Assembly (NCBI GenBank): GCA_029261065.1
Contig: JAJDCB010000011.1
Location: forward strand, 175,168 to 239,167
From: Candidatus Omnitrophota bacterium
GTDB lineage: Bacteria > Omnitrophota > Gorgyraeia > Zapsychrales > Zapsychraceae
Direction of reading: 5' to 3'
DNA: 64,000 bases
The position numbers were made by a program, and so were the translations under genes. Of the stretch, positions 13,636 to 45,916 are shown piece after piece (the first letter of the stretch is position 1; each line of letters begins with the position of its first letter). The notes below the pieces were generated by a model. The model ran no database searches and was not told the DNA's origin. It saw only the letters and a list, made by a program, of their open reading frames with translations.

Positions 13636-13656
13636 AGACTAGAAAGAAGGGAGATT

Positions 13657-14139: not shown

Positions 14140-14162
14140 GGGTTTGTGGATTATTTAATACA

Positions 14163-15230: not shown

Positions 15231-15258
15231 AAAAGTAATTCAATATTGGAGTTATACT

Positions 15259-15714: not shown

Positions 15715-15751
15715 AATGTCAGATTCATTATTAGCAGAGAAAGGGAGTCAG

Positions 15752-16999: not shown

Positions 17000-17019
17000 T
17001 TAAAGGGCTCCACATTCGT

Positions 17020-17487
17020 ATGAAATGCCCCGCATGTAGCTATAATGAAACAAAGGTTATTGATTCTCGTCTAAATACAGATGGAACATCTGTTAGACGA
17101 AGACGAGAGTGTTTAAAGTGTCAAAAGCGTTTTACAACATACGAATATGTTGAGCAAGTACCTTTAATGATCGTAAAACGCGATGGGCGTCGGCAACCTT
17201 TTGATCGTAAGAAAATAATTTCTGGTCTAATAAAGGCTTGCGAGAAACGTCCAGTTAGTATTGATAAAATGGAAGAAGTGACAAGTGAGGTCGAGCGAAA
17301 TATTCAAAAGAAATTTGATCGGGAAGTTGAATCGAAGGATGTGGGTGAGTTGATTATGGAGAAGTTAGCAGGCATTGATGAAGTTGCTTATGTGCGCTTC
17401 GCTTCCGTTTATCGTCAGTTTCGAGACGTGAATCAGTTTATGAGTGAACTAAAAGGGATGTTAGATAAGGAAAAAAGTAAGACGTAG
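17020..17487 (+). CDS. nrdR: Transcriptional repressor NrdR
   Basis: MKCPACSYNETKVIDSR...CLKCQKRFTTYE zinc ribbon followed by an ATP-cone; 155 aa. Confidence 0.95.
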   Translation: MKCPACSYNETKVIDSRLNTDGTSVRRRRECLKCQKRFTTYEYVEQVPLMIVKRDGRRQPFDRKKIISGLIKACEKRPVSIDKMEEVTSEVERNIQKKFDREVESKDVGELIMEKLAGIDEVAYVRFASVYRQFRDVNQFMSELKGMLDKEKSKT

Positions 17488-17512
17488 AGGATTCTTAAAG
17501 GACAATAAACTC

Positions 17513-17929
17513 ATGGCAAATTTAATACAAGTTGAACTTAGTAAAATTATTATTGATGAGAAAAGGCAAGATCAGATCATTGTGTTAAAAGAGAAGAAAG
17601 GTGATCGTCAGTTTCCTATTGTGATCGGTTTTTTAGAAGCATCCAGCATTAAGTTAAAACTTTCTGGTGTTAAACCACCACGTCCTATGACACATGATTT
17701 GCTGATGGTAACCATTAAAGAGTTTGGTGCAAAGCTAGATCGTTTAATTATCGATAAGATGGTTGATAATACGTTTCATGCCAAATTGGAACTTAAAACA
17801 AAGCGCGGGCGTTCGATTGTGATTGATGCGCGGCCTTCTGATGGACTTGCGTTGGCGGTAAGAACAGAAGATGCTTTAATATTTGTAGAAGAAGAAGTCT
17901 TAAATCAGGCAGAAATATTTAAAAGTTAA
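17513..17929 (+). CDS. Bifunctional nuclease family protein (DUF151)
   Basis: FPIVIGFLEASSIKLKL...VIDARPSDGLALAVR motifs typical of DUF151. Confidence 0.7.
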   Translation: MANLIQVELSKIIIDEKRQDQIIVLKEKKGDRQFPIVIGFLEASSIKLKLSGVKPPRPMTHDLLMVTIKEFGAKLDRLIIDKMVDNTFHAKLELKTKRGRSIVIDARPSDGLALAVRTEDALIFVEEEVLNQAEIFKS

Positions 17930-18017
17930 TAAATTTGACTTGTTAGGCCGATTTATTTCATATGATTTGTTTATGAAATACTAAAACCAAAGACAAGTCA
18001 TTTTTATTTGTAACGCT

Positions 18018-33623: not shown

Positions 33624-33647
33624 ATGATTTTAAGAAAGGGAGGGTGT

Positions 33648-35267
33648 ATGCGTTACCAATTAAAAATGTGTCTGCTTGTCATTTTGTCGTTGTGTGCCGC
33701 AGGCTGTATTGATACCAAACAAGAATTTTTTCTTAATCCGGATGGGTCAGGAAAAGTTATTCATGAAACTAGCTTGCAGTCGTTGAATATTACTATAGGA
33801 ATACAAGAGTCTGCTGAGAGTAAACAAAAGAAAATGGTGAAGGCTGAGATTGAGAAGTCTATTGGTATTGAGACTTGGAAAGATGTCTCTTTTGAACCTG
33901 TAGGGGATGATCAGGTAAAATTTAAGGGAACGGCTTATTTTAAAGATGTTAATAAGCTTAAGATTCATAATGGAGGAGCTTCAATTTCTTTTGTTGGCCA
34001 TATTGATTATCAAATAAAGGGAGATGAAATTTTTTTAGAATTGAAAAATAAAGAAGAGAAGAAAAAGAGCCAAGAGGATGGGCCCGTTAATTATACAGAA
34101 GAAGAATTAGCCGCCAAAATTGAAGAGAATAAAAGGGAATATCAAAAAACAAGAGTGATGTTGGCGGGTGTTCTTCCATCATTAAGGCATGAGAGAATTT
34201 TTCATCTTCCAGGAAAAGTTGAATCTATGCATAATTTTACGAGAAGAGATGATGGGGCGTTGGTAAATATTGTGGAAGGTACAAAGATGCTTGAGGCCAT
34301 GGATAAACTTATGGAAGATGAAGAATTGATTGCTCGTCAAATAAAATCAGGTCGTAACGTTATGAAAGATGGTTTTGGTAATGAATATCAATCTAACGAA
34401 ATATTTTTTGAGGAAAATGCCCCTGTACAGGCAACACTTTGGGATGCAAGGACACCGTTGTTTGATTATGCATCCGAAGTTGAGGAGGCGAAGCAAAACT
34501 ATGCCAAGGTGTCTGCTTTATTAGATCTACCGAAAAAGGTTACTGTGAGACCTTCAGATATTGGTGAATTTAAAGTGGTGGGAGTTAGATTGATTACATT
34601 CTCTGACCAGGATAACGGTATTCGCCCCTTTAATTTTGATGAAGGTTATACGTTATCTATCATGGGTGCTTTACCAGAAAAGGTACTTAAGGCTACAGAA
34701 GGTAAGGTCATATCTGCTATCGCTGATAATGGAACAAATTTATTATCTGAGAAAGGCTGGGACCGTAAAATTAATTTTATTACGTTAGGTGAAGATCAAC
34801 AGACTGTGATTTTTGATGTTAATCTTAAGCTGCCTTCAAAAGATGTAAAAGGCTTAAAAGAAGTTTCAGGTGATATTGTATTTGTTACATCTCAAGGATT
34901 TAAAGAAGTGGATTTGCAATTGAGTCAGTTTACTACTGGAGCCAAGGGGGGAGAATTTGATGCCGAGATCGTTAAGATTGGAGAAGATCAATGGACGCCA
35001 GGGAAACAGAGTATTGAGTTAAAGTTATCTTTAGCTAAATATAAAATAAAAGATATTGAGTTTTTTGACAGCAGTAATCAGAAGCTGGTTGTTGAGTCCG
35101 CCGGTTCAAGTACATGGGAAGATAGTTCAACGTTGAATTATCGTCTAAAAGATGGCGAAGCATTTCCTGCATCTGGAAAAGTTGTGATTCATGTTTATGA
35201 AAACTTGCAAAATTTTGAGATGCCGTTTATACTAAGCGACATTTCACTGTTAGGTGAAACAAAATAA
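33648..35267 (+). CDS. Hypothetical lipoprotein (539 aa)
   Basis: Lipobox LCAAGC after MRYQLKMCLLVILS. GGGAGGG SD ahead of the ATG at 33648 (ORF-track start trimmed). No family recognised. Confidence 0.6.
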   Translation: MRYQLKMCLLVILSLCAAGCIDTKQEFFLNPDGSGKVIHETSLQSLNITIGIQESAESKQKKMVKAEIEKSIGIETWKDVSFEPVGDDQVKFKGTAYFKDVNKLKIHNGGASISFVGHIDYQIKGDEIFLELKNKEEKKKSQEDGPVNYTEEELAAKIEENKREYQKTRVMLAGVLPSLRHERIFHLPGKVESMHNFTRRDDGALVNIVEGTKMLEAMDKLMEDEELIARQIKSGRNVMKDGFGNEYQSNEIFFEENAPVQATLWDARTPLFDYASEVEEAKQNYAKVSALLDLPKKVTVRPSDIGEFKVVGVRLITFSDQDNGIRPFNFDEGYTLSIMGALPEKVLKATEGKVISAIADNGTNLLSEKGWDRKINFITLGEDQQTVIFDVNLKLPSKDVKGLKEVSGDIVFVTSQGFKEVDLQLSQFTTGAKGGEFDAEIVKIGEDQWTPGKQSIELKLSLAKYKIKDIEFFDSSNQKLVVESAGSSTWEDSSTLNYRLKDGEAFPASGKVVIHVYENLQNFEMPFILSDISLLGETK

Positions 35268-35295
35268 ATAAAAACTACATCAGGGGAGAGAAGCA

Positions 35296-36195
35296 ATGTT
35301 TAATGGTTTTAAAAATTTAATGTTATGTCTTTGTATTATCGGTTTAACTTCTTATTCATGGGCGGATGAAATTCATTTATCGAATGGGGATAAAATTACA
35401 GGAAAATTGATTTCTGAAACGCAGACAGAGATGACTGTTGAGACAAAAGCTATGGGGGAAATCTTTATTAAGAAAATACTTGTGAAAGATCACGTCACGC
35501 AAGCTCAGATTGAGGCCGCTAAGAGAAAAAAAGAAGGGCCTCAGTGGGATCGGTCGTTGTCTCTTGGTTATACGCAGGCTAATGGAAATACAGATAAGAG
35601 TAGTTTTTCTGGAGGTGTATCGGTAAATCGAAAAACAGAACAAGATGAATGGACAGGAAAAATCAATAGTTATCTTTCAACGTCAGATAAAAAAATGGAT
35701 GGAAAAAAGTTTACAGGTTTAGCCCAGTATAAGCGTAAGCTTCCTGATAGTCCGAAGTGGGATCATTTTGCGAAGTTGGAGGCGAGTCAAGATCGATTTG
35801 CGAATGTGCATTATCGGCTCACACCAACCTATGGTATTGGTTATCAAGCACATGATGAAGATGATTTTAAACTACGCGGCGAGCTTGCAGCTGGTTTTGA
35901 GCATACGAATTATCGTGATGGTACAAAGAGCGATAATGAAGCCATTCTTGTTCCTCGTGGCTATTTTGAAAAAGTGTTGTTTGGTGATTTAAGGTTTAAA
36001 GAAGATGTTACGCTTTATCCTTCATTAAGCGAAACAGGTGAATTTCGTTTACGTGCAGAATCGATTTTGGAAAATCCAATTTCTGAGAAAATGTTTTGGA
36101 AGTTAAGTTTCTTAGAAGAGTTTGATTCAAACCCTCAAGGAACGGCCAAAAAGAATGACACGCGACTTGTCACATCTTTAGATGTAAAGTTCTAA
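35296..36195 (+). CDS. DUF481-like outer-membrane beta-barrel protein
   Basis: Signal peptide. Alternating beta-strand pattern. C-terminal aromatic residue (KF) typical of OMPs. Resemblance to YdiY/DUF481 proteins. Confidence 0.5.
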   Translation: MFNGFKNLMLCLCIIGLTSYSWADEIHLSNGDKITGKLISETQTEMTVETKAMGEIFIKKILVKDHVTQAQIEAAKRKKEGPQWDRSLSLGYTQANGNTDKSSFSGGVSVNRKTEQDEWTGKINSYLSTSDKKMDGKKFTGLAQYKRKLPDSPKWDHFAKLEASQDRFANVHYRLTPTYGIGYQAHDEDDFKLRGELAAGFEHTNYRDGTKSDNEAILVPRGYFEKVLFGDLRFKEDVTLYPSLSETGEFRLRAESILENPISEKMFWKLSFLEEFDSNPQGTAKKNDTRLVTSLDVKF

Positions 36196-37401
36196 ATGAA
36201 TGATTCACCTCAGAATGTGTTTCAGAAAAATATAGTCTATTTGTTTATATGTGCATTGATGATGTTGGTCGTGGTGAGTTTTATTGGTCAACTATATCAG
36301 GCACAAAGCAAACCATTCTGGGGTGATGAGGAATATGGAATTGAGACGTCCGTCGCGTACTTTAGTTACGGACATATGCTTCTTCATGGCGCTCAAGGTC
36401 AGGGAAGTCCCGCCCCTTTAGATTATCTCGCTTTAAAAATTTTTGATGACATGAAAATTCATGTGGATACCTTTGGTTTATCTGATGAAGTTTATTATCG
36501 TTTATGGGCCAATGGGGTAACCGTTGTTATGTGTTTTATCATGGCTTTGTTGTTACTAGGCGACATCAACTCCTCAAGAAGTACAATCTCAATAAAATCT
36601 ATTCAAATGACGCTTGTTGTTTTTGCATGCGTTACATTTTTGTTTAGTCGCATGGTGTATTATTATGCTGCTGAAGCTCGACCCTATGCTTTATGGAACG
36701 TCCTTTGGATGTTTTCTTTGGTGGTCAGTTTGTCTGAACAAAAATCAAAGCGATTGCTAATCATTTCTCTTTGTTTATTAGCCATGTCGGCTACAGCCTC
36801 TATTTTTCAAATATTAATGATGGCCATTGCGTTTGGAATTTTTGAGTTTTTAAAAGAAAAGAAATTTCAACAAACAATTTTAAAAACGATGAAAATATTT
36901 GTGTTGCCTTTTTTGATTTCTTTCTATTACTGTTTACAAGCAGATAAGTGGAGTATCGTAGAGGCGGGAGGAACGTTTCATGATTTTTTGGATTTATGGA
37001 ATCATAAAGCAACAACCATTCCTTTAATGGGAGTTGCTATTGGTTTATGTTTTATTGGCAGAGACAATCGAAAGCATGCATTAGCTCCATTAAGTGTTCT
37101 TTTATTATTTCTTATCGGTCCATTGATTTTTTGGGTCACACGATTAAAAGGTTTTTTTTATGCCGAAAGGCAATTTGTCTATTATGATTTAACTTATGCG
37201 GTTTTTCTCTTAACCGTCATGAAATGTTTGCCATCCATTTTTTCTAGAATTAAGCTTAATAAACTAAAAATGGGGGTGTTTGCCCTAATTTTTTTTATTG
37301 GATTCTCGATGACGTTTCGAAAAAAGCTTCTTCGAAAAGTAGAGAAATCCACTCAAGCCACCATATCTTTTCTCAAAGAGCCTTCACACCTTAATTTATA
37401 G
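36196..37401 (+). CDS. Polytopic membrane protein, possible GT-C-fold glycosyltransferase-like
   Basis: About 10-12 predicted TM segments. Acidic motif PFWGDEEYG in the first extracytoplasmic loop. The ATG overlaps the upstream stop (TAAATG), suggesting translational coupling. Confidence 0.35.
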   Translation: MNDSPQNVFQKNIVYLFICALMMLVVVSFIGQLYQAQSKPFWGDEEYGIETSVAYFSYGHMLLHGAQGQGSPAPLDYLALKIFDDMKIHVDTFGLSDEVYYRLWANGVTVVMCFIMALLLLGDINSSRSTISIKSIQMTLVVFACVTFLFSRMVYYYAAEARPYALWNVLWMFSLVVSLSEQKSKRLLIISLCLLAMSATASIFQILMMAIAFGIFEFLKEKKFQQTILKTMKIFVLPFLISFYYCLQADKWSIVEAGGTFHDFLDLWNHKATTIPLMGVAIGLCFIGRDNRKHALAPLSVLLLFLIGPLIFWVTRLKGFFYAERQFVYYDLTYAVFLLTVMKCLPSIFSRIKLNKLKMGVFALIFFIGFSMTFRKKLLRKVEKSTQATISFLKEPSHLNL

Positions 37402-37471
37402 TAATTTTTTGGATTTTAACCTATTTAATAGCAGTGTTTTACAGCAAATTTAGGTGTCCGGGACTGTCATG

Positions 37472-37500
37472 TTGACTAATATACTTATTCTTACTAAAAT
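37472..37500 (+). promoter_or_regulatory. Candidate sigma70 promoter (TTGACT-17nt-TAAAAT) for the putative pilus-like locus
   Basis: Hexamers read directly in the 142-bp intergenic region. Confidence 0.3.
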
Positions 37501-37543
37501 AAATATTGTCAGATAATCAAAATACGAATTATTAAGGCATAAT

Positions 37544-38935
37544 ATGTATTACAACGATTTGCATAAATTAAAAAAGATGAGTCTTCTTGTACTATCGACG
37601 ATACTTATCTGTTCCTTTCCTTCAAAAGCGACTGCCTCGCTTAGGCTTAGCATAAGGCCGATTGATGGGGGCAACAGCCTGCGCTTTGGGCGTGTTGATA
37701 TTCCATCAAAATCCAACCAAGAGGTACGCCTAACAATTACATCTAGCGATAATAAACAGTATCAAGTTTTTCAACGTTTGGTTGAACCTTTTGTCAATGA
37801 ACGAGGGGAGAGCTTGAATCGATCTGTTATGACTGTCTCTGCCTTAACAGGTTCTAACATGGCAGGAACGGTATTTGTTCAAGAAGCGGAGAGAGTAGGC
37901 TATTCGGAACAGCTCATTTATACCTCTGATGGCAATGGAGATAGTGATGCGTTTACATTGGTTTATCAAGTTAATGAAGATACGTTTTCCCAGTCCGGCA
38001 ATTTTTTTGGAAAGGTTATTTATACCGTTCGTGCTGTTGGAAGTTCTAATCAGGACGAATCGTTGTTAAATATTTTTTTTGAATCCGCAGATGATTTTAA
38101 GTTCTCGGTTGATACCTCATCAGCCAGTCAATTTGTAAGATTAAATTCGGAAAGTGAACAGACCTTTCAAGGGTATGTTAAGTTTTCTTACTCAGGGCAT
38201 CATTCTGGTTCGTTAAGTATTGATCAAGATATATTTCTTTATCCAGCCAATGATGTGAATGAAGATATACAAAAAGAGATTGTTACATTTTTTGTTCAAG
38301 CAAAACAAGAGTCGGATGTTAAGATTCAAGAACCAGAAAATTTAGATTTTGGTTTACGTCAGTTGTATTCATCGCGATCAGATGAGGATGAGGTTATAGT
38401 TTATTTTCAATTAAATAAGGATATGGTTGATCAGCAAATTCAAGGGGATTATAGGGGGAAGATAAAGTTTAGCGTTGAGAGTTCGCAAGTTCACGAAGTG
38501 ATTGACGTTGATCTAGAAATTTCTATTTCACCGATTTTTGAACTTGTTGTGGATTATCCTCCTGAGGGAATGAGTTTTCGGGAGCTCGTTCCACACGGTG
38601 AGGCGCAAACAAAAGAAATTTCTGTTCGTGTTCGTTCTAATCTCGGCCGGCCTTATGTTGTTGGTCAAAATGTCAGTGGGCTTTTAACAAACGAGGAAGG
38701 AAGCGAACTGGTTAATACGAATTTTACGCAGAATGTAGAGTTAGTAGGGTCAACAACAGGTGAGGTTGAGATTCTGGATTTTGTGCCTGTTGAAGATGGT
38801 GAAACGTCTTTATTTCATTCTGATAAAGAGGGATCATCGGCACAATTTAAAGTGCATTATCGTATCAAGCCTTATCAAAAGATGAAGGCTGGAGATTATA
38901 AAACAGCTGTTATTTATTCTTTAAGTGAAGTGTGA
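37544..38935 (+). CDS. Secreted protein with three tandem spore-coat-U (SCPU)/DUF4402-like modules (candidate pilus tip/multi-domain subunit)
   Basis: Signal peptide. Post-signal alternating hydrophobic stretch LRLSIRPI (donor-strand-like). Three modules each end in G(D)YxGK(I/V)xYxV-type motifs (NFFGKVIYTVRAV; GDYRGKIKFSVES; AGDYKTAVIYSLSEV-stop). Confidence 0.45.
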   Translation: MYYNDLHKLKKMSLLVLSTILICSFPSKATASLRLSIRPIDGGNSLRFGRVDIPSKSNQEVRLTITSSDNKQYQVFQRLVEPFVNERGESLNRSVMTVSALTGSNMAGTVFVQEAERVGYSEQLIYTSDGNGDSDAFTLVYQVNEDTFSQSGNFFGKVIYTVRAVGSSNQDESLLNIFFESADDFKFSVDTSSASQFVRLNSESEQTFQGYVKFSYSGHHSGSLSIDQDIFLYPANDVNEDIQKEIVTFFVQAKQESDVKIQEPENLDFGLRQLYSSRSDEDEVIVYFQLNKDMVDQQIQGDYRGKIKFSVESSQVHEVIDVDLEISISPIFELVVDYPPEGMSFRELVPHGEAQTKEISVRVRSNLGRPYVVGQNVSGLLTNEEGSELVNTNFTQNVELVGSTTGEVEILDFVPVEDGETSLFHSDKEGSSAQFKVHYRIKPYQKMKAGDYKTAVIYSLSEV

Positions 38936-38999
38936 TATGAGCTGAGGGGAAATCTAAGGTATTCATTTAATTAAACAGTTACAAAGAAGGGGGTATGAG

Positions 39000-39617
39000 A
39001 TGAAAAAATTAGGTTTAAATCTTTTTGCTTTATTTGCGATTCTTGGCTTAACGGCAAGTATTGCCTCGGCACAATCGAGTGAAACATTTACTGTTCAAGC
39101 GGAGATCTTACCATCTAATGGTGCGACTTTTTCAGTTAGTAAGGTTACTCCTGGAAATCCAGATCAATTTCAAAGTGTAAATACAACGGATTTGGATTTT
39201 GGTGTGCTTACGTTAAATACTAATTTGGGAATTTTTCTTCCATCATTTTTTTGGGTGATTGATGTTGCTCCAAATGGTGCTGGTAATCCGGATATTGATA
39301 TTGAATATTTGGACACGGGTGCTCCAGCGGGTGCTATAGCAACATTGGGTCAAAGAGGAACGATTAGTTTTGCAGAAGTTATTCCGCAACCAAACAATCA
39401 GCCTGATCAAGTAAATGTTATTAAGGGAGAAAGTTTAGCCGAAGCTGATGGCGATTCCATCGATGAAACACAATTTGCAGCTGGTTTTGCTCGGATTTCT
39501 GTTTCAACAGCTACGGGAGATCCAAATTTACAAGAAGGAACGGCTCAACCATTTACAGCATTGGATAAAGATGGTGTTTATAATGGTCAATTAAAAATAA
39601 CGACGACATTTGATTAA
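39000..39617 (+). CDS. Secreted SCPU/DUF4402-like single-domain protein (candidate major pilin subunit)
   Basis: Signal peptide. N-terminal alternating hydrophobic stretch TFTVQAEIL. C-terminus GVYNGQLKITTTFD-stop, matching the GxYxGxlxvtvxF ending of spore-coat-U/Csu-type pilins. Confidence 0.45.
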   Translation: MKKLGLNLFALFAILGLTASIASAQSSETFTVQAEILPSNGATFSVSKVTPGNPDQFQSVNTTDLDFGVLTLNTNLGIFLPSFFWVIDVAPNGAGNPDIDIEYLDTGAPAGAIATLGQRGTISFAEVIPQPNNQPDQVNVIKGESLAEADGDSIDETQFAAGFARISVSTATGDPNLQEGTAQPFTALDKDGVYNGQLKITTTFD

Positions 39618-39665
39618 TAATAAAAGGTATAGGGGGGGGGCGTGAGCCTCCCCTAAGTTTTTATA

Positions 39666-40475
39666 ATGAAAAAAAATATTTTTATAGTTTTATTAATTTT
39701 AGTGATAAGTGGAATTGCAAATCTTGCACAGGCTCAGATCTTAATGGAGAAAAGCAAGGTTAACTTGACAGTTGCACCTGGTGAAACTGTTGTTGATCAT
39801 ATCAATCTCCATAATACAGGTGAAATCACAAAATCTATTAAAATCTACTGGGAAGATTTTGAATATATTCATCCCTTTAATGGAAAAAAGACTTTTTTAC
39901 CACCTGGAACGTCACAATATTCTATGAGCGATTGGATTACTTATGCCCCAATAGAAGTTACCATCCCCCCGAAATCTAAGAAAAAAATTGATTTTACAAT
40001 TAATGTGCCTATCGATGCTGTTGGAGGTCATTACGGTGTTCTTTTTTTTGAAGATATACCAACGGGTGGAACAGGTAGTAATGTTGGTGTTAGCATTATT
40101 ACCAGATTGGGATCTTTGTTTTATATTGATTCTACAAATAAAGATAAGTCAGCAACGATCGAGGATATCAAAGTTTACGATGATGAATTTGTTGGGAAGT
40201 TTTTGAATCAAGGTAATATTTTTATGATTCCGAAAGGTGTCTATTACGTGATGGACAAAGATGGCTTGGTTGTTACTCGAGGAGAGGTTGGTAAGATCTA
40301 TTTGCCTCCTTCAGCGAAGACTTCTTTTTCTGTGTCTTTAGCAGACGTTAAGCGTCCAGGTGAGTATATGCTTGTTCTGACATTTGATTTAGATGAGGGG
40401 GATAGTGTTGTTAGTGAAATAGATTTTTTAATAAATCAGGATCGATCGCTTCATATTCATCAAGTAAGAAATTAA
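39666..40475 (+). CDS. Secreted protein, candidate periplasmic pilus chaperone (PapD-like two-Ig-domain size and N-terminal pattern)
   Basis: Signal peptide plus ~245 aa mature protein. N-terminal VNLTVAPGETVVDHINLHNTGEITKSIKIYWED resembles the chaperone N-domain pattern (v.l..s..i..g....l.l.N.g...p.l.q.wie). Not verified. Confidence 0.35.
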   Translation: MKKNIFIVLLILVISGIANLAQAQILMEKSKVNLTVAPGETVVDHINLHNTGEITKSIKIYWEDFEYIHPFNGKKTFLPPGTSQYSMSDWITYAPIEVTIPPKSKKKIDFTINVPIDAVGGHYGVLFFEDIPTGGTGSNVGVSIITRLGSLFYIDSTNKDKSATIEDIKVYDDEFVGKFLNQGNIFMIPKGVYYVMDKDGLVVTRGEVGKIYLPPSAKTSFSVSLADVKRPGEYMLVLTFDLDEGDSVVSEIDFLINQDRSLHIHQVRN

Positions 40476-40595
40476 GCTTGAGCATTTGTTTCCTAAGCTA
40501 AATAAAGAAATGTAATGATAATTTTTATTCAAGGACCAAATTGATGCTCAAAGGAAAATTAAGATTAGTAACTGTATGTTGTAATTTGTTTCGTT

Positions 40596-43500
40596 ATGAA
40601 AAAAAATATTTGGCCTATTCATATAATTTTAATTTTATTATTGGTTTTTCAGCCTACTTTGGTTTGGGCGCAAAACCCAAGCACCTACCAGCTCTATCTT
40701 CAGTTAGGTAAATATGCTTTAAGAGATGACAACTTTGAAAAAGCTTATTTTTATATGCAAGCCGCTTACATGTCCGACCCCAAGCGACCTGAAGCGCAAC
40801 GGTATTTAGAGCGAATTCCTAATTTCCCCGATTATCAATATTCTTATTCTCATTATATGGCATTAGCTTATGACGCCTTAGATGCAAGCCGCTTTCATTT
40901 GGCGTATCTTTATTTTGATGCTGCGCATAACGTCAATCCTTCAGCTTATGAGCCTTTGGAAAACATTAAACGTTTAAGTTTATTTCGTTCTCCTAGAAAA
41001 GGTAAGAAACGTAAGAAGATAGTTAAAAGAAGTCGTCCCATAAAGCGAACTAAAAAAATTGTACAAAAAACTAAATCTTTTCCGATTCTACCTAAGAAAG
41101 AAATTCGTGTGGAATCTTCTGTGGATACCAAAAAGAGTGTTAGGACATATAGTAAACCCAAAGAAGTAGAGAAGACACCATCGTCTAGGGCAGAGGAGAT
41201 AACAAGATCTCAAACAGTTGAAAAAGAGTTTCAAAAAGATAAAACGTCTCCTCTTATAAAGAGTAAAATAACATTTAGTGTAAATGAGGATTTGAAAGTT
41301 GCTGAGACACTTCTCTTAAGCGATGAGTTGTGGGACGCTCGATCAACAAAAACGATTGAGATCGAAATCGGTCATTCTGTTATCTTGGAAGGTCAGAATA
41401 TCGAACGGTACTTAGTTATTACCCAGGGCATGATTGAGGTTTCTCGTCTTGATCGTAATCGTATAGAGATTCAAAGTTTAAAACGGGGCTCCACACTCTT
41501 TCATGTGTGGGATGATAGGGGGCGGTGGACTTTTAATATTGTGGGCACGTTGCCTGAAAAGATTGTTAATGAAAGGGCGGAGAAAGAAAAACAGATTGAA
41601 GAACATACAGAGAATTTTAGGTTTGGTTATTCTAATAATTGGGATACTTTTTATGTAGGTGATAGTGTCAAAAATTTAGAGCAAGAAAGTTTGTTCTTTA
41701 GGCAATGGTTGGGTATTTATGGGCCGACACCTTATGGCTATTTTGACGGTTCTGTTAACTATTTCAAATTTAAAGAATCAACGGAGCTTGTTGGTCAGAC
41801 ATTTGGTTTAACAGATGCGCAGATAGGGCCTTTTAAAGATTTCTCTCTTCGTGGTTATGATGCAACGAAAAGGTTTTCGGAGTTATCATTGCCGGGTCGT
41901 TCTTTTCGAGGAGTGTTGTTAGATGCGTATGCTTTTCAGCGGCGTTTAAAGTATTCCCTTTTAAAAGGGCAAGATCGAGCCGTGTTTTTGACTGTTTCTC
42001 CAGGAAGTAACGAAGAGAGGAATTCATATATCGAGGGAGCTAAAGTTATTTTATTCCCTGATCAAGAAACTCAATTTTCCTTTAATTATGCCAGAGGTTA
42101 TGGAGATGAACGATTAGCATTTTTAAAGAGTAAAGTTTATTCAATTGAAGCCCAAACGAAATTCGAAAATTTATTTACGCAGGCAGAGTTAGCTTATGAT
42201 GAAGATGTTTTTGCAAGTATTATTCGCACGCGTTTGGAGCGAGAAAATTATTCGTTAAGAGTAAATTTACGAGATGTTGATAAAAATTTTCTTACGATTA
42301 CCTCGCGCTCCTCGGCTACAGGCGAAGTGGGAGGGAATATCATTTTTAATTGGGATCCTAAAGATCGAGATATTCAATTTTCAACCAATTTAGATATTTA
42401 TCGTGATCGTGAAATACCAAACGAAGACAACCCAAATGATGTCAATCTTGATTTGGGGATGTTTATTTCTAAATCTTTCTCTAAGTCGACAAAACTAAGT
42501 AGTTCGTTCTTCTTCGTGCATACCCCACAGTTAATTTCTCCGCGTGATAATTTGAGATGGAATAATACTTTATCCCATACTTTTAGAATATGGCAAGAGA
42601 AGGCTTTAACAACATTTGTTACTGCCTCGTATCAACGTAGTCGTTTTGATTTTTCCTCTTCTTCAGAGTTTGATCGTTATAGCCTACGTGCTGGATTCCG
42701 ACTTCCGTTGTTAGATGGTTTATCTTATTTTGCAAATTACGAATATTCTTGGGTGGATGAAGTGGAAACAGGAGACACCAATAGTCCTACAGTTTTTCTA
42801 ACAGGATTAAGCTACTCCAAACGTTTTCATGATCTTCTATCCGGAAGAATAAGCTTCTTCTATAGAGACGAACAGAATGCAGAGAGTGACTTAAGTTTTC
42901 TTTCAGGCCAAGACGATATCCGAACTAACTTTGGTCTCTCTTATCGACCTAATCCCGATGTGGAAGTTTTTATGGATGGAAGTTTTCGCAGTGTCTGGAG
43001 TGAGAATGAAGATCAAGCTGCCTTTAATGATGCGGATTTGCGTTTAGGGTTACGTTCCTCGTGGGATCTATTATTTCGATGGGATCCAAAAGCCAAGATT
43101 TCTGGCGTTGTGTTTAAAGATTTAGATGGGAATGGTCTTCAAAATAATGGTGAGCCTGGCATAGCAGATATATTAATTAATGTAGGGAGAAAATCGGCAA
43201 AAACTAATAAAGAAGGGAAATATGCTTCAAGCATACGAGCAAAAAAGATTGCAGTAGCGATAAATACAGGATCTATCCCACAAGGGTTTTTACTATCTAC
43301 GGATTTAGAGAAAAGCGTTGAAATTGAGCATCTTCAAAAATATAGCGTTAATTTTGGCTTAATGGCTCGCACAAGTATTTACGGTGTTGTCTTTGTTGAT
43401 AACAATAAGAATAAGGCGCTGGATCGATCAGATAAAAGGATAGCCAATGCTAAACTAACGCTTAATGGCAAGCAATCCACGCAGTCAAATGCTGATGGGA

Positions 43501-43658
43501 CATATTATTTTGAAAATATCAACCCAGGAAAGCATACCCTCGTTTTGGACGTTAATTCCCTACCTTTAAAATATCTTCCCATGATTAAAATTAAAAATAC
43601 TTTTTCAGTAAAAGAGGGAACAACCTTCACGTTGCATGTACCGCTTGAGAAAAAATAG
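40596..43658 (+). CDS. Large outer-membrane protein (1020 aa): TPR-like N-terminus, polybasic linker, pilus-assembly N-like beta domain, beta-barrel region, two C-terminal carboxypeptidase-regulatory-like domains; candidate usher-like pore
   Basis: Signal peptide. K/R-rich segment RSPRKGKKRKKIVKRSRPIKRTKKIVQKTK. IEIEIGHSVILEG...GSTLFHVWDD resembles the pilus-formation/secretin N-type domain. Beta-strand-rich middle. GVVFKDLDGNGLQNNGEPGIADILINV and IYGVVFVDNNKNKALD...GTYYFENINPGKHTL CarboxypepD_reg-like repeats. Confidence 0.45.
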   Translation: MKKNIWPIHIILILLLVFQPTLVWAQNPSTYQLYLQLGKYALRDDNFEKAYFYMQAAYMSDPKRPEAQRYLERIPNFPDYQYSYSHYMALAYDALDASRFHLAYLYFDAAHNVNPSAYEPLENIKRLSLFRSPRKGKKRKKIVKRSRPIKRTKKIVQKTKSFPILPKKEIRVESSVDTKKSVRTYSKPKEVEKTPSSRAEEITRSQTVEKEFQKDKTSPLIKSKITFSVNEDLKVAETLLLSDELWDARSTKTIEIEIGHSVILEGQNIERYLVITQGMIEVSRLDRNRIEIQSLKRGSTLFHVWDDRGRWTFNIVGTLPEKIVNERAEKEKQIEEHTENFRFGYSNNWDTFYVGDSVKNLEQESLFFRQWLGIYGPTPYGYFDGSVNYFKFKESTELVGQTFGLTDAQIGPFKDFSLRGYDATKRFSELSLPGRSFRGVLLDAYAFQRRLKYSLLKGQDRAVFLTVSPGSNEERNSYIEGAKVILFPDQETQFSFNYARGYGDERLAFLKSKVYSIEAQTKFENLFTQAELAYDEDVFASIIRTRLERENYSLRVNLRDVDKNFLTITSRSSATGEVGGNIIFNWDPKDRDIQFSTNLDIYRDREIPNEDNPNDVNLDLGMFISKSFSKSTKLSSSFFFVHTPQLISPRDNLRWNNTLSHTFRIWQEKALTTFVTASYQRSRFDFSSSSEFDRYSLRAGFRLPLLDGLSYFANYEYSWVDEVETGDTNSPTVFLTGLSYSKRFHDLLSGRISFFYRDEQNAESDLSFLSGQDDIRTNFGLSYRPNPDVEVFMDGSFRSVWSENEDQAAFNDADLRLGLRSSWDLLFRWDPKAKISGVVFKDLDGNGLQNNGEPGIADILINVGRKSAKTNKEGKYASSIRAKKIAVAINTGSIPQGFLLSTDLEKSVEIEHLQKYSVNFGLMARTSIYGVVFVDNNKNKALDRSDKRIANAKLTLNGKQSTQSNADGTYYFENINPGKHTLVLDVNSLPLKYLPMIKIKNTFSVKEGTTFTLHVPLEKK

Positions 43659-43668
43659 GAGTAATATT

Positions 43669-43908
43669 TTATTTGGGGACTATGGTAATGAGGGTAATTC
43701 TTTGATCATTTCTCCAAAGTTCTTCTGAGATGTGATCAAAATCTTCCTTTTCAAAAGATCTTTCAGAGAGAGCTGGTGTATTAAATCCAGCGATGGCAGG
43801 GATCGTGACACTAATGCGATACGTAACACTAGATGATGCCATTAAAAGAGGTGTGTTTAAAATTATTATGATAAGTGTGATTAAACATAGGTGAAGATAT
43901 CGAGACAT
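43669..43908 (-). CDS. Small secreted hypothetical protein (79 aa)
   Basis: Signal peptide MSRYLHLCLITLIIIILNTPLLMASSS. Its ATG overlaps the stop of the upstream minus-strand gene by 1 nt (coupling). ORF-track start trimmed. Confidence 0.45.
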   Translation of the reverse strand: MSRYLHLCLITLIIIILNTPLLMASSSVTYRISVTIPAIAGFNTPALSERSFEKEDFDHISEELWRNDQRITLITIVPK

Positions 43909-44288
43909 TACTGTCTCCTTATTTCTCTCTCCCCATTGAATGTATCGAGAGACAATGGAGGGAAGCCCGAAGGCAGTCTTGACCACCCGCGGGCTGGGAA
44001 GATTGAAGGTTTAAGACCTTCAATATCAAGTAAACAAATTTCCAGCCTTCTATCATCCAGCCAAAATTCATCTGAATATTTTTTCCAATCATTGTGATAA
44101 TTGGAATTACGTAATTGTTCTTTTATTTGATTGATTATTAGGTAATCGATGGGGGTAATCGAGTCATGGTCAATGACTTTAATACTCAGGGCATTTTTGG
44201 ATAGCTGCAGAGTATTTGCTGCTAACGCATAGGTTGCAACAAATTGTAGGGCGACTACAAATATGCAGATTTGGATTAATTTTTTCAT
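43908..44288 (-). CDS. Small secreted hypothetical protein (126 aa)
   Basis: Signal peptide MKKLIQICIFVVALQFVATYALAAN; GAGAAG SD upstream. Confidence 0.55.
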   Translation of the reverse strand: MKKLIQICIFVVALQFVATYALAANTLQLSKNALSIKVIDHDSITPIDYLIINQIKEQLRNSNYHNDWKKYSDEFWLDDRRLEICLLDIEGLKPSIFPARGWSRLPSGFPPLSLDTFNGEREIRRQ

Positions 44289-44313
44289 CTTCGCTTCTCT
44301 TTCTTTGAGTTAC

Positions 44314-44355
44314 CCCAAAAAAGGGGCAAAAAAAATACCCTCGAAAGAGAGGGCG
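44314..44355 (-). terminator. Strong minus-strand intrinsic terminator (hairpin CCCTC-N6-GAGGG + U8 + second hairpin CCCC-U6-GGGG)
   Basis: Read on the minus strand as CGCCCUCUCUUUCGAGGGUAUUUUUUUUGCCCCUUUUUUGGGG. It terminates a transcript coming from higher coordinates. Confidence 0.65.
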
Positions 44356-44580
44356 AAGGTCAAAATTGACGGAATTCATTTTCATGAATGAATCACGGCA
44401 GTCAGACAACCTTATTCCGGGGGGCCAGAATGTAGGCTCACGACTTTGTCTACGAGCGCTTTCGCGTTCATAGCCAAGTATCTTTAAGGATACTTGGGCC
44501 CTACTCTTTCGAGATAGTTTACCTTTCAAAATTAAAAGATCGATAAGATCACTTAAATAGCGTTGATCTTAAGAGCTAAT
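44314..44580 (-). ncRNA. Candidate structured small RNA (unclassified), ~260 nt, minus strand
   Basis: sigma70-like promoter on the minus strand (TTGCCT-17nt-TATACT; plus-strand coordinates 44584..44612). Several perfect hairpins: 9-bp CCAAGTATC/GATACTTGG, 8-bp TAAGATCA/TGATCTTA, ATTCAT-GAAA-ATGAAT. Strong terminator. No credible ORF. Class not identified; it could instead be part of the leader/promoter of the ECF sigma gene. Confidence 0.25.
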
Positions 44581-44652
44581 TGAAGTATAACATAGGATAT
44601 ACCTGAAGGCAAAAATTTGGCCTTCTTCTGCCTTGAAAAATATAGGGATATT

Positions 44653-45291
44653 ATGGATAACCTAAGCTCTGCAAAGAGTTACGAAGATGATCCGGATGTG
44701 AAATTAATGTTGGAATTTCAAGCTGGGGATAAGGCTAGCTTTGAGAAGCTGATGGTTAAATATTATCCTCGTATTCTGAATTTTATCTATCGGTTTATCC
44801 CAAGTCGTGAGGTTTCAGAAGATATTGCGCAGGAGGCATTTATGCGTGTGTATAAATCTGTCCAAAGCTATCGACCACAATCAAAATTCAATACATGGCT
44901 TTTTACGATAGCTAAGAACTTAAGTCTCAATGAGTTACGAAAAAATAAAAAAAAAGGTGCTTCGTTAGATGCTCCAATTAAATCTAGTGAAGGGAGTTTT
45001 ATACGTCAAGTTGAAGATAAAAATGCTTTAAATCCATCAGATGATTTGATACAAAGTGAAGTCTCCCAAGTGGTTAAAGCCGCAATCGAAGAGCTGCCAG
45101 AAAATCAGCGTATGGCTGTGTTATTACGCCGATATGAAAACTTATCCTATGATGAAATTGCGAAAACCATGAACACCACAGCGAAAGCTGTAAAGTCTTT
45201 GCTCAGTAGGGCTAAGGAAAATTTGAAGGTTAGGTTAGCGAGTTTTAAGAAATCAGGGGATTTGCAGGAAAATCCAAATCAAAAAGGCTAG
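44653..45291 (+). CDS. ECF-type RNA polymerase sigma-70 factor
   Basis: Region 2 (LMLEFQAGDKASFEKLMVKYYPRILNFIYRFI...AQEAFMRVY) and region 4 HTH (NQRMAVLLRRYENLSYDEIAKTMNTTAKAVKSLLSRAKENL). Start set at MDNLSS. Confidence 0.85.
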   Translation: MDNLSSAKSYEDDPDVKLMLEFQAGDKASFEKLMVKYYPRILNFIYRFIPSREVSEDIAQEAFMRVYKSVQSYRPQSKFNTWLFTIAKNLSLNELRKNKKKGASLDAPIKSSEGSFIRQVEDKNALNPSDDLIQSEVSQVVKAAIEELPENQRMAVLLRRYENLSYDEIAKTMNTTAKAVKSLLSRAKENLKVRLASFKKSGDLQENPNQKG

Positions 45292-45370
45292 ATTCTTAAC
45301 GAAACTTTTTTACCTAAATAGTGTTAAAATAGATAGAAGTTATGAAATAATTATTTGAAGGAGGGGAAAC

Positions 45371-45916
45371 ATGGATTGCCAGAATATTAGGAAGCTCATT
45401 CCAACCTATCTCGATCAAGAGCTGGATAACGAACAAACAGCGATGGTCAAAGATCATACTTCTAAATGTGTTGCCTGCCAAAAAGAGTTAAATCAATATC
45501 AAAAATCTTGGGATATGCTTGATCACCTTCAGGAGATTGAACCAGATCCCCATTATATGTCACGTTTTTGGACTAAGGTGTCTGAAGAAAAACCTTGGTA
45601 CGAAACTATTCTAGATAATATCAGGACAGGACTATTCGCAAACAAACTGATTCCAGCTTTAGCTGTAAGTTGCTTTCTCTTTGTTATGAGTTTTACTGTT
45701 TTTCAACGATATCAGTCTGCCAATATGGATCAGCAAATTCTTGAATTATCTAAGGAAGATTATGATGTGGTGAGTACTCTTGAATTGGTGGAAAATTTAG
45801 ATATCATCGAAGATATTGATTTAATTGAAGAATTGGATATTATAGATAGCTTAGATACAACTGATAATTTACAAAGTGAATTAAAAAATATTAGAAAGAG
45901 ATTGTATCATGTGTAG
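45371..45916 (+). CDS. Putative zinc-finger (ZAS-type) anti-sigma factor with a transmembrane segment
   Basis: HxxxCxxC motif (HTSKCVACQKE) near the N-terminus. Single TM helix (LIPALAVSCFLFVMSFTVF). Positioned immediately after the ECF sigma gene. Strong SD. Confidence 0.6.
   Translation: MDCQNIRKLIPTYLDQELDNEQTAMVKDHTSKCVACQKELNQYQKSWDMLDHLQEIEPDPHYMSRFWTKVSEEKPWYETILDNIRTGLFANKLIPALAVSCFLFVMSFTVFQRYQSANMDQQILELSKEDYDVVSTLELVENLDIIEDIDLIEELDIIDSLDTTDNLQSELKNIRKRLYHV

What the first reader, a model, noticed from the sequence alone, without database searches (positions are those of the whole stretch)
37472..43658. Candidate divergent archaic (spore-coat-U/Csu-type) chaperone-usher-like pilus locus
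Four consecutive signal-peptide proteins in one orientation:
- A 463-aa protein with three tandem modules, each ending in a G(D)YxGK(I/V)xYxV motif.
- A 205-aa protein ending in GVYNGQLKITTTFD-stop.
- A 269-aa protein of periplasmic-chaperone size with a PapD-N-like pattern.
- A 1020-aa outer-membrane protein.

The C-terminal GxYxGxlxvtvxF motif and the post-signal alternating-hydrophobic stretches (TFTVQAEIL; LRLSIRPI) are what is expected for SCPU/DUF4402-type pilins that polymerise by donor-strand exchange. Gene order (tip/multidomain subunit, major subunit, chaperone, usher) mirrors sigma/archaic CU operons.

The match is remote. This could be a new variant of CU-like surface fibre assembly in this lineage.
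Basis: inference. Interest (0 to 1): 0.65.

Follow-up and report, generated by a model that had tools for sequence, protein, structure and literature searches.

The report
Chaperone-usher-like pilus cassette in Omnitrophota
Four neighbouring genes, conserved across the uncultured phylum Omnitrophota, most likely build a surface fibre the way chaperone-usher pili are built, yet their sequences fit no known pilus family and are closest to the Gram-positive WxL and CPR "Pam" systems.

Summary
Four co-oriented genes encode signal-peptide proteins: A 463 aa, B 205 aa, C 269 aa, D 1020 aa. A has three homologous 149-aa modules, and B ends in GVYNGQLKITTTFD.

- C models confidently (pLDDT 94.8) as a two-domain PapD-like fold. 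Its best PDB matches are Enterococcus WxLIP, then many true CU chaperones.
- D models as a TPR region, a small beta-domain, a barrel of about 26 strands and two C-terminal beta-sandwiches. Its nine best PDB matches are full-length FimD/PapC ushers, but TM-scores are low and no plug insertion is seen.
- No member of any of the four families hits the Pfam PapD, Usher, SCPU or Fimbrial models, and DUF4402 gives only isolated weak hits. So it is not an archaic Csu/SCPU locus.
- By sequence, C is related to WxLIP and to the membrane-anchored chaperones in CPR Pam pilus loci, but it lacks their anchor.

The A-B-C-D cassette is intact in 51 of about 80 Omnitrophota loci, and its flanks vary. B keeps an N-terminal strand and a C-terminal strand whose Gly lies exactly 14 residues from the end. 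A conserved hairpin follows B.

Best reading: a new, phylum-wide, diderm variant of donor-strand pilus assembly. The subunit folds were not modelled.

The parts
37472..37500 (+). Sigma-70-like promoter match (TTGACT-17-TAAAAT) upstream of gene A
   Evidence: Best-scoring promoter-like site in 37300-44700, matching 10 of 12 positions. This is a consensus match only. The number of such sites in the region is no higher than in shuffled sequence.
37544..38935 (+). Gene A: 463-aa secreted protein made of three tandem homologous beta-rich modules. Proposed multi-domain (tip or fibrillum) subunit.
   Evidence: ORF. Motif at residues 152, 301 and 450. Modules homologous at HHalign probability 95.6-99%. 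Found in 72 related loci. The last motif's Gly lies 14 residues from the C-terminus in 62 of 65 members. Seven of 45 members give weak hits to NF058581 CPR_Pam_pilin_C.
37637..38041 (+). A module 1 (residues 32-166). Starts with the conserved strand LSLSVxPVDGxNSLRFGR and ends with GNFFGKVIYTV.
38042..38488 (+). A module 2 (residues 167-315). Ends with GDYRGKIKFSV.
38489..38932 (+). A module 3 (residues 316-463). Ends with GDYKTAVIYSLSEV, which is also the C-terminus of the protein.
39000..39617 (+). Gene B: 205-aa secreted single-domain protein. Proposed major fibre subunit.
   Evidence: ORF. Family of 72 sequences, with extra paralogs in some loci. No Pfam, NCBIfam or PDB sequence match.
39084..39113 (+). 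B N-terminal strand directly after the signal peptide (TFTVQAEILP; family consensus F-x-[VIL]-S-A-x-[VIL]-P). Proposed donor strand.
   Evidence: Present in 67 of 72 members at mature position 4-5. Among the five most conserved 10-residue stretches of B. The donor role is inferred.
39573..39614 (+). B C-terminal strand GVYNGQLKITTTFD (consensus G-t-Y-t-G-T-L-t-i-T-A-T). Proposed acceptor-groove edge (F-strand-like).
   Evidence: The most conserved stretch of B, with information content 3.18 against a mean of 2.25. The Gly lies exactly 14 residues from the C-terminus in 61 of 68 members. The same type of terminal motif is seen in Pam pilins of L003 and L005.
39633..39654 (+). GC-rich hairpin plus T-run between the B stop and the C start. 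Proposed attenuator or mRNA stabiliser that gives an excess of B.
   Evidence: Terminator-like site with 9 pairs, 7 of them G-C. A strong hairpin at this junction is conserved: median best 40-nt MFE is -19.6 kcal/mol, against -8.4 to -9.6 at the other three junctions, and 60% of 55 loci reach -15 or lower.
39666..40475 (+). Gene C: 269-aa soluble periplasmic protein with a PapD/WxLIP-like two-domain fold. Proposed chaperone.
   Evidence: AF2 model with pLDDT 94.8. Foldseek top matches are WxLIP 9i1y/9i25, then CfaA, CsuC, Caf1M, FimC and EcpB. Weak Pfam WxLIP_PGBD/WxLIP_HBD hits in 33 and 11 of 74 members, and none to PapD. No C-terminal TM helix, unlike the distant relatives P0099-P0104.
40026..40133 (+). 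C residues 121-156: last two strands of domain 1 and their loop (GGHYGVLFFE ... GVxIVTRVGCLFFIEP). Proposed donor-strand-complementing hairpin, containing the invariant R147.
   Evidence: The only lower-confidence part of the model, pLDDT 67-85 at residues 131-150. R147 is invariant in 68 of 68 close members, and K/R31 in the first strand is basic in all 68. The function is inferred by analogy with PapD G1 and the WxLIP hairpin (PMC10599100).
40596..43658 (+). Gene D: 1020-aa outer-membrane protein with usher-like architecture. Proposed assembly and secretion pore.
   Evidence: AF2 model with pLDDT 79.6, and mostly about 85-96 in the barrel. The nine best PDB matches are full-length FimD/PapC, E 1.8e-20 to 1.2e-14. 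Thirty family members were aligned.
40683..40988 (+). D N-terminal TPR-like helical domain (residues 30-131), followed by a disordered Lys-rich linker (132-235)
   Evidence: Helices in the model. TPR_2 hits in 23 of 30 members.
41304..41549 (+). D small periplasmic beta-domain (residues 237-318), T2SS-T3SS_pil_N-like
   Evidence: PF13629 hits in 24 of 30 members, best E 4.3e-10. Strands in the model.
41619..43067 (+). D beta-barrel, about 26 strands (residues 342-824), with no inserted plug domain
   Evidence: Counted from the DSSP elements of the model.
43089..43652 (+). D two C-terminal beta-sandwich domains (residues 832-1019), SdrD_B/CarboxypepD_reg type
   Evidence: SdrD_B hits in 30 of 30 members. 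Model. They occupy the position of usher CTD1 and CTD2.

Best explanation
The four genes form a self-contained operon for a chaperone-and-pore-assisted surface fibre, working like a chaperone-usher pilus.

Proposed steps:
1. A and B are exported by Sec.
2. In the periplasm, the soluble two-domain protein C holds each subunit by inserting the hairpin formed by the last two strands of its first domain (residues 121-156) into the subunit's incomplete beta-sandwich. That hairpin would lie next to the conserved C-terminal strand. The two invariant basic residues (K31, R147) are candidates for gripping the subunit's terminal carboxylate.
3. C-subunit complexes dock on the periplasmic domains of D.
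4. The N-terminal strand of the incoming B (F-x-V-S-A-x-V-P) replaces C's strand in the previous subunit (donor-strand exchange).
5. The growing fibre leaves through D's barrel of about 26 strands.

B is the major, over-produced subunit. A, with its three fused pilin-like modules, is a specialised subunit at one end of the fibre, probably the tip.

Shown by tool results: the genes, their conservation as a unit, the fold of C, the architecture of D, the terminal motifs and the hairpin after B.
Inferred: strand complementation and exchange, polymerisation, and the roles assigned to A and B.
For: - C has a confident PapD-like fold. Its best PDB matches are WxLIP and then more than 40 CU chaperone chains.
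- C is a significant sequence relative of anchored chaperone-like proteins (phmmer E 7.5e-11 to 9e-6). One of them, P0101, sits between a true Pam pilin (166 bits, cutoff 55) and a PamR-like gene.
- Pam pili are shown by cryo-EM to assemble by donor-strand exchange with PapD-like chaperones (bioRxiv 10.64898/2026.03.03.709456). WxLIP is predicted to complete WxL by strand insertion (PMC10599100).
- C has invariant basic residues in the first and last strands of domain 1.
- D's nine best PDB matches are full-length ushers, 5 to 10 orders of magnitude better in E-value than any other barrel protein. The domain order is periplasmic beta-domain, large barrel, then two beta-sandwiches.
- B and A keep a C-terminal strand whose Gly is exactly 14 residues from the end (61 of 68 and 62 of 65). 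B keeps an alternating-hydrophobic N-terminal strand, and both strands are among the most conserved parts of B.
- A conserved strong hairpin follows B only, as expected if B is made in excess.
- Some loci carry extra B paralogs.
- Only these four genes are conserved together.
Against: - No structural model of A or B was obtained, so an incomplete fold and a donor strand are not shown.
- No sequence-level membership in any CU family. HHalign against FimC, FimD and FimA is not significant.
- TM-scores of D to ushers are low (0.19-0.38, or 0.42-0.45 for barrel-only entries). Much of the E-value advantage may come from the flanking beta-sandwich domains: an SdrD fragment alone reaches E 3.6e-13. 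The barrel alone matches ushers (E about 4e-10) hardly better than MOMP (E about 1e-9).
- There is no plug insertion and the strand count differs from ushers.
- Whether K31 and R147 lie in the inter-domain cleft could not be checked.
- There are no experimental data for any member.
Confidence: 0.65

Rival explanations
1. A non-polymerising surface-display complex of the WxL/WxLIP type. C stays bound to A and B as a stable strand-complemented partner, and D exports or anchors these complexes at the outer membrane. No fibre is formed.
For: By sequence and by Foldseek rank, C is closest to WxLIP. WxLIP is proposed to bind and stabilise WxL proteins on the cell surface rather than to build polymers (PMC10599100). 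Polymerisation of A or B is not shown here.
Against: - C lacks the C-terminal membrane anchor that WxLIP and PamC/D have.
- A and B are not WxL-domain proteins.
- The conserved hairpin after B implies B is made in excess over C, which fits catalytic chaperone use better than a 1:1 complex.
- B has a conserved N-terminal strand of donor-strand type.
Confidence: 0.15
2. D is a TPR-plus-barrel exporter of another class, with A, B and C as cargo or accessory proteins unrelated to pilus assembly. Candidates are a Slam-like translocon for surface proteins, or a PgaA/BcsC-like polysaccharide porin.
For: D has an N-terminal TPR domain ahead of a barrel. One D-family member hits PF04575 SlipAM at E 4e-4. 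The barrel alone is not clearly closer to ushers than to other barrels. In this window a GT-C-like membrane protein lies upstream.
Against: - Full-length ushers are the nine best structural matches.
- No glycosyltransferase or synthase gene is conserved with the cassette, and the upstream genes of the window are found in none of the related loci.
- The obligate partners are a PapD-fold protein and two secreted beta-rich proteins.
- According to general knowledge, Slam barrels are much smaller (14 strands).
Confidence: 0.08
3. One reading: a genuine but very divergent member of the archaic (sigma, Csu/spore-coat-U) chaperone-usher family.
For: CsuC is among the good structural matches of C, with target-normalised TM 0.56-0.62. 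The subunit termini resemble the SCPU/DUF4402 pattern (from memory). Gene order is subunits, then chaperone, then pore.
Against: - No PapD_N/C, Usher, PapC_N/C or SCPU hit in any member of the four families. DUF4402 gave one member each in A and B, at E 0.15-0.16.
- The significant sequence relatives of C are WxLIP and Pam-type proteins instead.
- D lacks the plug insertion and has different terminal domains.
Confidence: 0.05

Closest known systems
Chaperone-usher pili of Proteobacteria (Fim/Pap classical, CFA/I alternate, Csu archaic)
   Same: - A soluble periplasmic two-domain PapD-fold protein.
- A large outer-membrane barrel protein with an N-terminal periplasmic beta-domain and two C-terminal beta-sandwich domains.
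- Small secreted subunits with an N-terminal alternating-hydrophobic strand and a C-terminal strand whose Gly is 14 residues from the end.
- All encoded in one operon, with a hairpin after the major subunit gene.
   Different: - No sequence membership in PapD_N/C, Usher, PapC_N/C, Fimbrial or SCPU.
- The barrel has about 26 strands rather than 24, with no plug inserted in it.
- D has an extra N-terminal TPR domain and a long disordered linker.
- The N-terminal beta-domain is T2SS-T3SS_pil_N-like and the C-terminal domains are SdrD_B-type.
- One subunit is a fusion of three homologous modules.
Pam pili of CPR/Patescibacteria (PamA/B pilins, PamC/D chaperones, PamT, PamR; bioRxiv 10.64898/2026.03.03.709456)
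   Same: - C is a significant sequence relative of the chaperone-like gene in a Pam locus: P0101 at E 2.7e-8, with shared GGHYGV.FF and following-strand motifs.
- A modules give recurrent weak hits to the Pam pilin C-terminal domain model.
- B and Pam pilins end in the same kind of G-x-Y-x-x-T-x-T-x-x-A-T strand.
   Different: - Pam is a monoderm system with membrane-anchored chaperones and no trans-envelope pore. Here the chaperone is soluble and an outer-membrane barrel protein is always present.
- No PamT or PamR is present.
- A and B fall far below the Pam pilin cutoff: 12.9 bits against 55 for A, and no hit for B.
- Pam pilins have an NTD-linker-CTD layout, which is not seen here.
- The preprint reports Pam pilins as exclusive to CPR.
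WxL/WxLIP (DUF916-DUF3324) clusters of Bacillota
   Same: C's best Pfam matches are WxLIP_PGBD and WxLIP_HBD, and its best PDB structural matches are E. faecium WxLIP 9i1y/9i25. WxLIP is predicted to complete its client's beta-sandwich with a hairpin strand (PMC10599100).
   Different: - The window's C scores 23.8 bits, below the 27.3 gathering score.
- C has no C-terminal TM helix.
- The clients are not WxL-domain proteins.
- An outer-membrane component is present.
- WxL systems are not known to polymerise.

Membership tests
Chaperone-usher pathway (classical/alternate/archaic) | Periplasmic chaperone with the two-Ig-domain PapD fold | tested here: met
   AF2 model with pLDDT 94.8 and two beta-sandwich domains. 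Foldseek probability 1.00 to CfaA, CsuC, Caf1M, FimC, CupB2, EcpB, DraB and YadV, with target-normalised TM up to 0.65.
Chaperone-usher pathway (classical/alternate/archaic) | Chaperone belongs to Pfam PapD_N (PF00345) / PapD_C (PF02753) | tested here: not met
   No hit at E <= 1 for the window protein. PapD_N/C are absent from the 25 most recurrent families among 74 members. HHalign against FimC gives probability 0.4%.
Chaperone-usher pathway (classical/alternate/archaic) | Conserved basic pair in the A1 and G1 strands (PapD Arg8/Lys112) that anchors the subunit carboxylate in the cleft | tested here: inconclusive
   K/R31 in the first strand and R147 in the last strand of domain 1 are basic in 68 of 68 close members.
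Chaperone-usher pathway (classical/alternate/archaic) | Usher: 24-strand barrel with a plug domain inserted between strands 6 and 7, plus NTD, CTD1 and CTD2; Pfam Usher, PapC_N and PapC_C | tested here: not met
   - Architecture is partly similar: the nine best PDB matches are FimD/PapC, with an N-terminal beta-domain and two C-terminal beta-sandwiches.
- The model has about 26 strands and no insertion after strand 6.
- None of 30 members hits Usher or PapC_N/C.
- HHalign against FimD gives probability 0.3%.
Chaperone-usher pathway (classical/alternate/archaic) | Subunits with an incomplete Ig fold (missing G strand) and an N-terminal donor strand | not testable with these tools
Sequence features are consistent: a conserved N-terminal alternating strand, and a C-terminal strand in fixed register to the C-terminus.
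Archaic CU subunits (SCPU PF05229 / DUF4402 PF14352) | Subunit matches the SCPU or DUF4402 profile | tested here: not met
   No hit for the window's A or B. One of 64 B members and one of 45 A members hit DUF4402, at E 0.15-0.16. No SCPU hit.
WxL/WxLIP cluster | WxLIP = DUF916 (PF06030) + DUF3324 (PF11797) + C-terminal TM helix | tested here: inconclusive
   The window's C hits PF06030 at E 4.9e-5 with 23.8 bits, below the 27.3 cutoff. Of 74 members, 33 hit PF06030 and 11 hit PF11797. It is the top structural match. C ends without a TM helix, whereas P0099-P0104 have one.
WxL/WxLIP cluster | Client proteins carry a WxL domain (PF13731) | tested here: not met
   No WxL hit in the A or B families. 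HHalign of B against two authentic E. mundtii WxL proteins gives probability <= 0.15%. The positive control, the E. mundtii WxL protein, hits PF13731 at E 1e-51.
Pam pilus system (CPR) | Pilins match NF058581 (Pam pilin C-terminal domain), with an NTD-linker-CTD layout | tested here: not met
   The window's A scores 12.7-12.9 bits against a cutoff of 55. Seven of 45 A members give weak hits, best E 8e-4. None of 64 B members hits. HHalign of A modules and B against Pam CTDs gives probability <= 7.5%.
Pam pilus system (CPR) | Membrane-anchored PapD-like chaperones (PamC/D), PamT tip, PamR anchor, no outer-membrane component | tested here: not met
   C is homologous to the chaperone-like gene of a Pam locus but is not anchored. 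No PamT or PamR match was found in the window genes. An outer-membrane barrel gene is present in 77 of 81 loci.

The most novel reading that the evidence does not exclude
This would be a previously unrecognised, phylum-wide lineage of donor-strand-exchange pili in Omnitrophota. Its chaperone shares ancestry with the monoderm WxLIP and PamC/D proteins, and its outer-membrane pore is an independently evolved, plugless, roughly 26-strand analogue of the usher (or a very deep branch of it). If so, it is a diderm bridge between the Gram-positive/CPR strand-complementation systems and the proteobacterial chaperone-usher pathway. It would also show that the Pam-type machinery is not confined to CPR bacteria.
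Probability: 0.45. Interest if true: 0.8.

Novelty: new variant of a known kind. Interest (0 to 1): 0.68.

Why it matters
- Omnitrophota are ultra-small, uncultured bacteria, probably host-dependent or predatory. Their known attachment repertoire is limited to type IVa and Tad pili and giant ORFs (PMC10066038). No paper in the searched library links them to chaperone-usher systems.
- A conserved four-gene fibre cassette would add a candidate adhesion organelle for cell-cell contact in this phylum. It was found in 104 species representatives, and the chaperone family has 787 clusters at 50% identity.
- It connects three systems so far treated separately: proteobacterial CU pili, Gram-positive WxL/WxLIP clusters and the CPR Pam pili described in 2026. 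That makes the origin of the PapD-type chaperone and of the usher directly testable.
- It gives a compact four-gene unit that could be expressed heterologously.

Tried and rejected
- Pfam and NCBIfam scans of the four window proteins, and of every member of the A, B, C and D alignments, found no PapD, Usher, SCPU, Fimbrial or WxL hit.
- Sequence and profile searches of A, B, C and D against PDB chains gave nothing significant.
- HHalign of the C, D and B families against E. coli FimC, FimD and FimA was not significant. These were single-sequence templates, so it is a weak test.
- HHalign of B against two E. mundtii WxL proteins, and of A modules and B against Pam pilin C-terminal domains, was not significant beyond the terminal strand.
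- The Deinococcus plasmid locus was tested as a possible parallel cassette. Only the SdrD_B tandem of its 1058-aa protein matches D.
- Flanking genes were tested as possible parts of the system: the DUF481 OMP, the GT-C-like membrane protein, the small minus-strand ORFs and the ECF sigma/anti-sigma pair. None is conserved with the cassette.
The idea of submitting the in-frame B-C stretch as a fusion was therefore never submitted, and the intergenic spacer also contains five stop codons.

Full report
**What is in the sequence.** Four co-oriented ORFs lie at 37544-38935 (A, 463 aa), 39000-39617 (B, 205 aa), 39666-40475 (C, 269 aa) and 40596-43658 (D, 1020 aa). Each begins with a Sec-type signal peptide, judged by reading the sequences. 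The window is ordinary chromosomal DNA of about 36-39% G+C, with purL, a CCA-adding enzyme, ClpB, DnaK and an ECF sigma/anti-sigma pair nearby. A carries G-x-[YF]-x-G-K-[VI]-x-[YF]-x-V at residues 152, 301 and 450, exactly 149 residues apart. Its three modules are homologous to each other, with HHalign probability 99, 99 and 95.6%. B ends in GVYNGQLKITTTFD.

**Conservation.** Homologues of C are numerous: about 100 in the word-indexed search, almost all from Candidatus Omnitrophota MAGs. A scan of one genome per species (GTDB) found 104 relatives. Essentially all were Omnitrophota, with a few bins labelled otherwise. In the 80 or so fetched loci the order A-B-C-D is intact in 51. Most of the others are cut by contig ends, and a few carry extra B paralogs (BABCD, BBBACD, ABBCD). 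None of the window's flanking genes is conserved with the cassette. The unit is therefore exactly these four genes. A profile of C against 1.84 billion representative proteins gave 787 hits at E <= 1e-30 and about 17,000 at E <= 1e-3.

**Protein C.**
- Pfam and NCBIfam give no PapD_N or PapD_C hit. The only signals are sub-threshold WxLIP_PGBD (E 4.9e-5) and fn3_5.
- Across 74 members, 33 hit WxLIP_PGBD, 11 hit WxLIP_HBD and none hits PapD.
- The AF2 model is confident (pLDDT 94.8). It has two beta-sandwich domains and one less confident hairpin loop at about residues 131-146.
- Against the PDB, the best Foldseek matches are E. faecium WxLIP (9i1y, and 9i25 bound to a WxL protein). Dozens of authentic CU chaperones follow: CfaA, CsuC, Caf1M, FimC, CupB2, EcpB, DraB and YadV. 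All have probability 1.00, with target-normalised TM up to 0.65.
- In the 68 close members, position 31 in the first strand is always K or R, and position 147 at the start of the last strand of domain 1 is always R. An alternating-hydrophobic segment, GVxIVTRVGCLFFIEP, follows R147. This parallels the Arg8/Lys112 pair and G1 strand of PapD (general knowledge). I could not verify the three-dimensional position of these residues.
- The distant sequence relatives P0099-P0104 (E 7.5e-11 to 9e-6) share the GGHYGV.FF motif. Unlike C, they end in a transmembrane helix with a basic tail.

**Links to known strand-complementation systems.**
- One distant relative, P0101, lies between a gene scoring 166 bits on NCBIfam's Pam pilin model (cutoff 55) and a PamR-like gene. 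It is therefore the chaperone-like gene of a CPR Pam pilus locus.
- A 2026 preprint (10.64898/2026.03.03.709456) solved PamA and PamB filaments by cryo-EM and showed donor-strand exchange. It identified PapD/FimC-like chaperones that carry a C-terminal membrane anchor, found no trans-envelope machine, and reported Pam pilins as exclusive to CPR.
- For Gram-positive WxL clusters, AlphaFold predicts that a WxLIP hairpin strand completes the WxL beta-sandwich (PMC10599100).
- C therefore belongs, by sequence, to a superfamily whose known members hold clients by strand insertion. It is the soluble, periplasmic form expected in a diderm.

**Protein D.**
- Pfam finds SdrD_B in 30 of 30 members, CarboxypepD_reg in 28, T2SS-T3SS_pil_N in 24 and TPR in 23. 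There are no Usher or PapC_N/C hits.
- The AF2 model (pLDDT 79.6, mostly about 85-96 in the barrel) contains five parts. These are TPR helices (30-131), a disordered Lys-rich linker (132-235), an eight-strand beta-domain (237-318), about 26 long barrel strands (342-824) and two beta-sandwich domains (832-1019). No inserted domain is seen within the barrel.
- The nine best PDB matches are full-length FimD and PapC, with E from 1.8e-20 to 1.2e-14 over 750-850 aligned columns. An SdrD fragment follows at 3.6e-13. Barrel-only FimD and PapC come next at about 4e-10, and other barrels (MOMP, Cir, OpdK, MtrB) lie at 1e-9 to 1e-7.
- TM-scores are low, 0.19-0.45. I read this as similarity of overall architecture, meaning a periplasmic beta-domain, a large barrel and two C-terminal beta-sandwiches. 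It is not proof of homology, and the barrel alone is not distinctive.
- The absence of a plug insertion and the different strand count mean the defining usher features are not met.

**Proteins A and B.**
- Neither matches any Pfam, NCBIfam or PDB sequence family at a meaningful level.
- The exceptions are recurrent weak hits of A modules to the Pam pilin C-terminal domain (7 of 45 members, best E 8e-4) and isolated DUF4402 hits at E about 0.15.
- B (72 sequences) has an N-terminal strand straight after the signal peptide, F-x-[VIL]-S-A-x-[VIL]-P, in 67 of 72 members. Its C-terminal strand is G-t-Y-t-G-T-L-t-i-T-A-T.
- The Gly of the C-terminal strand lies exactly 14 residues from the C-terminus in 61 of 68 B members and in 62 of 65 A members. 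The C-terminal strand is the most conserved stretch of B, and the N-terminal strand is among the top five.
- A fixed register to the terminal carboxylate, alternating hydrophobic residues and a Gly 14 residues from the end are the classical signature of CU pilins (general knowledge, not tested here).
- Pam pilins in L003 and L005 end in the same kind of strand, aGaYtaTmTyIATatF. The overall profile similarity is not significant.

**Expression signal.** A GC-rich hairpin with a T-run lies between the B stop and the C start, at 39633-39654. Across 55 complete cassettes, the best 40-nt hairpin downstream of B has a median energy of -19.6 kcal/mol. The other three junctions give -8.4, -8.9 and -9.6, and 60% of loci reach -15 or lower at the B-C junction. 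This fits B being produced in excess over C and D, as for a major structural subunit. It argues against a 1:1 C-B end product.

**Mechanism and confidence.** I consider a chaperone-and-pore-assisted, donor-strand-type fibre the most likely function (0.65). B would be the major subunit, A a three-module specialised subunit, C the periplasmic chaperone and D the outer-membrane assembly pore.
- Shown: gene content, conservation as a unit, the fold of C, the architecture of D, the terminal motifs and the hairpin.
- Inferred: incomplete subunit folds, strand complementation and exchange, polymerisation, and the roles of A and B.
- Rivals: a non-polymerising WxL-like display complex (0.15), a different class of TPR-barrel exporter (0.08), and true membership of the archaic Csu/SCPU family (0.05).

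**Comparison, novelty and limits.**
- The system works like a CU pilus but fails the sequence-membership tests for CU, WxL and Pam families alike.
- It combines a Pam/WxLIP-type chaperone that has lost the anchor with an usher-like but plugless outer-membrane protein.
- The main Omnitrophota study discusses only type IVa and Tad pili and giant ORFs. No paper in the searched library links Omnitrophota with chaperone-usher systems.
- I rate it a new variant of a known kind.

Noticed in passing
L087 (Deinococcus psychrotolerans plasmid NZ_CP034185, record 13019-18765): A WxLIP/C-like 281-aa gene is flanked by hypothetical genes of 291, 175 and 1058 aa. The 1058-aa protein shares only the tandem SdrD_B region with D (HHalign 97%). 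This may be a parallel cassette in another diderm phylum.
   Followed up: partly
L071:1794-7807; also P0158, P0223, P0228, P0266, P0275 and others: One Omnitrophota locus carries three C-like genes in a row. The representative search lists C-like proteins of 515-591 aa with two matched stretches, which look like tandem-duplicated chaperone-like proteins.
   Followed up: no
L019, L030, L048, L064, L079, L084: Some cassettes have two to four B paralogs placed before or after A. This resembles the minor-pilin sets of classical pilus operons.
   Followed up: partly
window 43669-44288 (- strand) and 44354-44337 (- strand): Two small overlapping ORFs lie convergent to D (105 and 126 aa; the 126-aa one has a signal peptide), with a terminator-like hairpin nearby. 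The 126-aa ORF is found in none of the related loci and the 105-aa ORF in only 2, so neither is conserved with the cassette.
   Followed up: partly
window 44617-45916: An ECF sigma factor (Sigma70_r2/r4_2) and a zf-HC2 anti-sigma factor lie immediately downstream of the cassette. They are not conserved with it in other genomes.
   Followed up: partly
window 33624-37401: Upstream lie a 547-aa putative lipoprotein, a DUF481 outer-membrane protein (E 3.5e-34) and a 401-aa multi-pass membrane protein with weak TMEM260/GT-C-like similarity. None is conserved next to the cassette elsewhere.
   Followed up: partly
L005:2583-7932: A probable CPR locus has four paralogous 312-359-aa genes, three of them with weak Pam pilin C-domain hits. 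An anchored C-like gene (P0103) follows, and an FtsX/MacB-type gene lies upstream. It looks like a divergent Pam-type locus.
   Followed up: partly
window 25266-28793: A 1175-aa protein has a C-terminal subtilase (Peptidase_S8) domain and about 780 N-terminal residues with no Pfam match. The two preceding large ORFs (700 and 772 aa) also have no Pfam match.
   Followed up: no
D family alignment A2: One D-family member hits PF04575 SlipAM (surface lipoprotein assembly modifier, a TPR-plus-barrel protein) at E 4e-4. This is the only hint of a non-usher barrel family.
   Followed up: no
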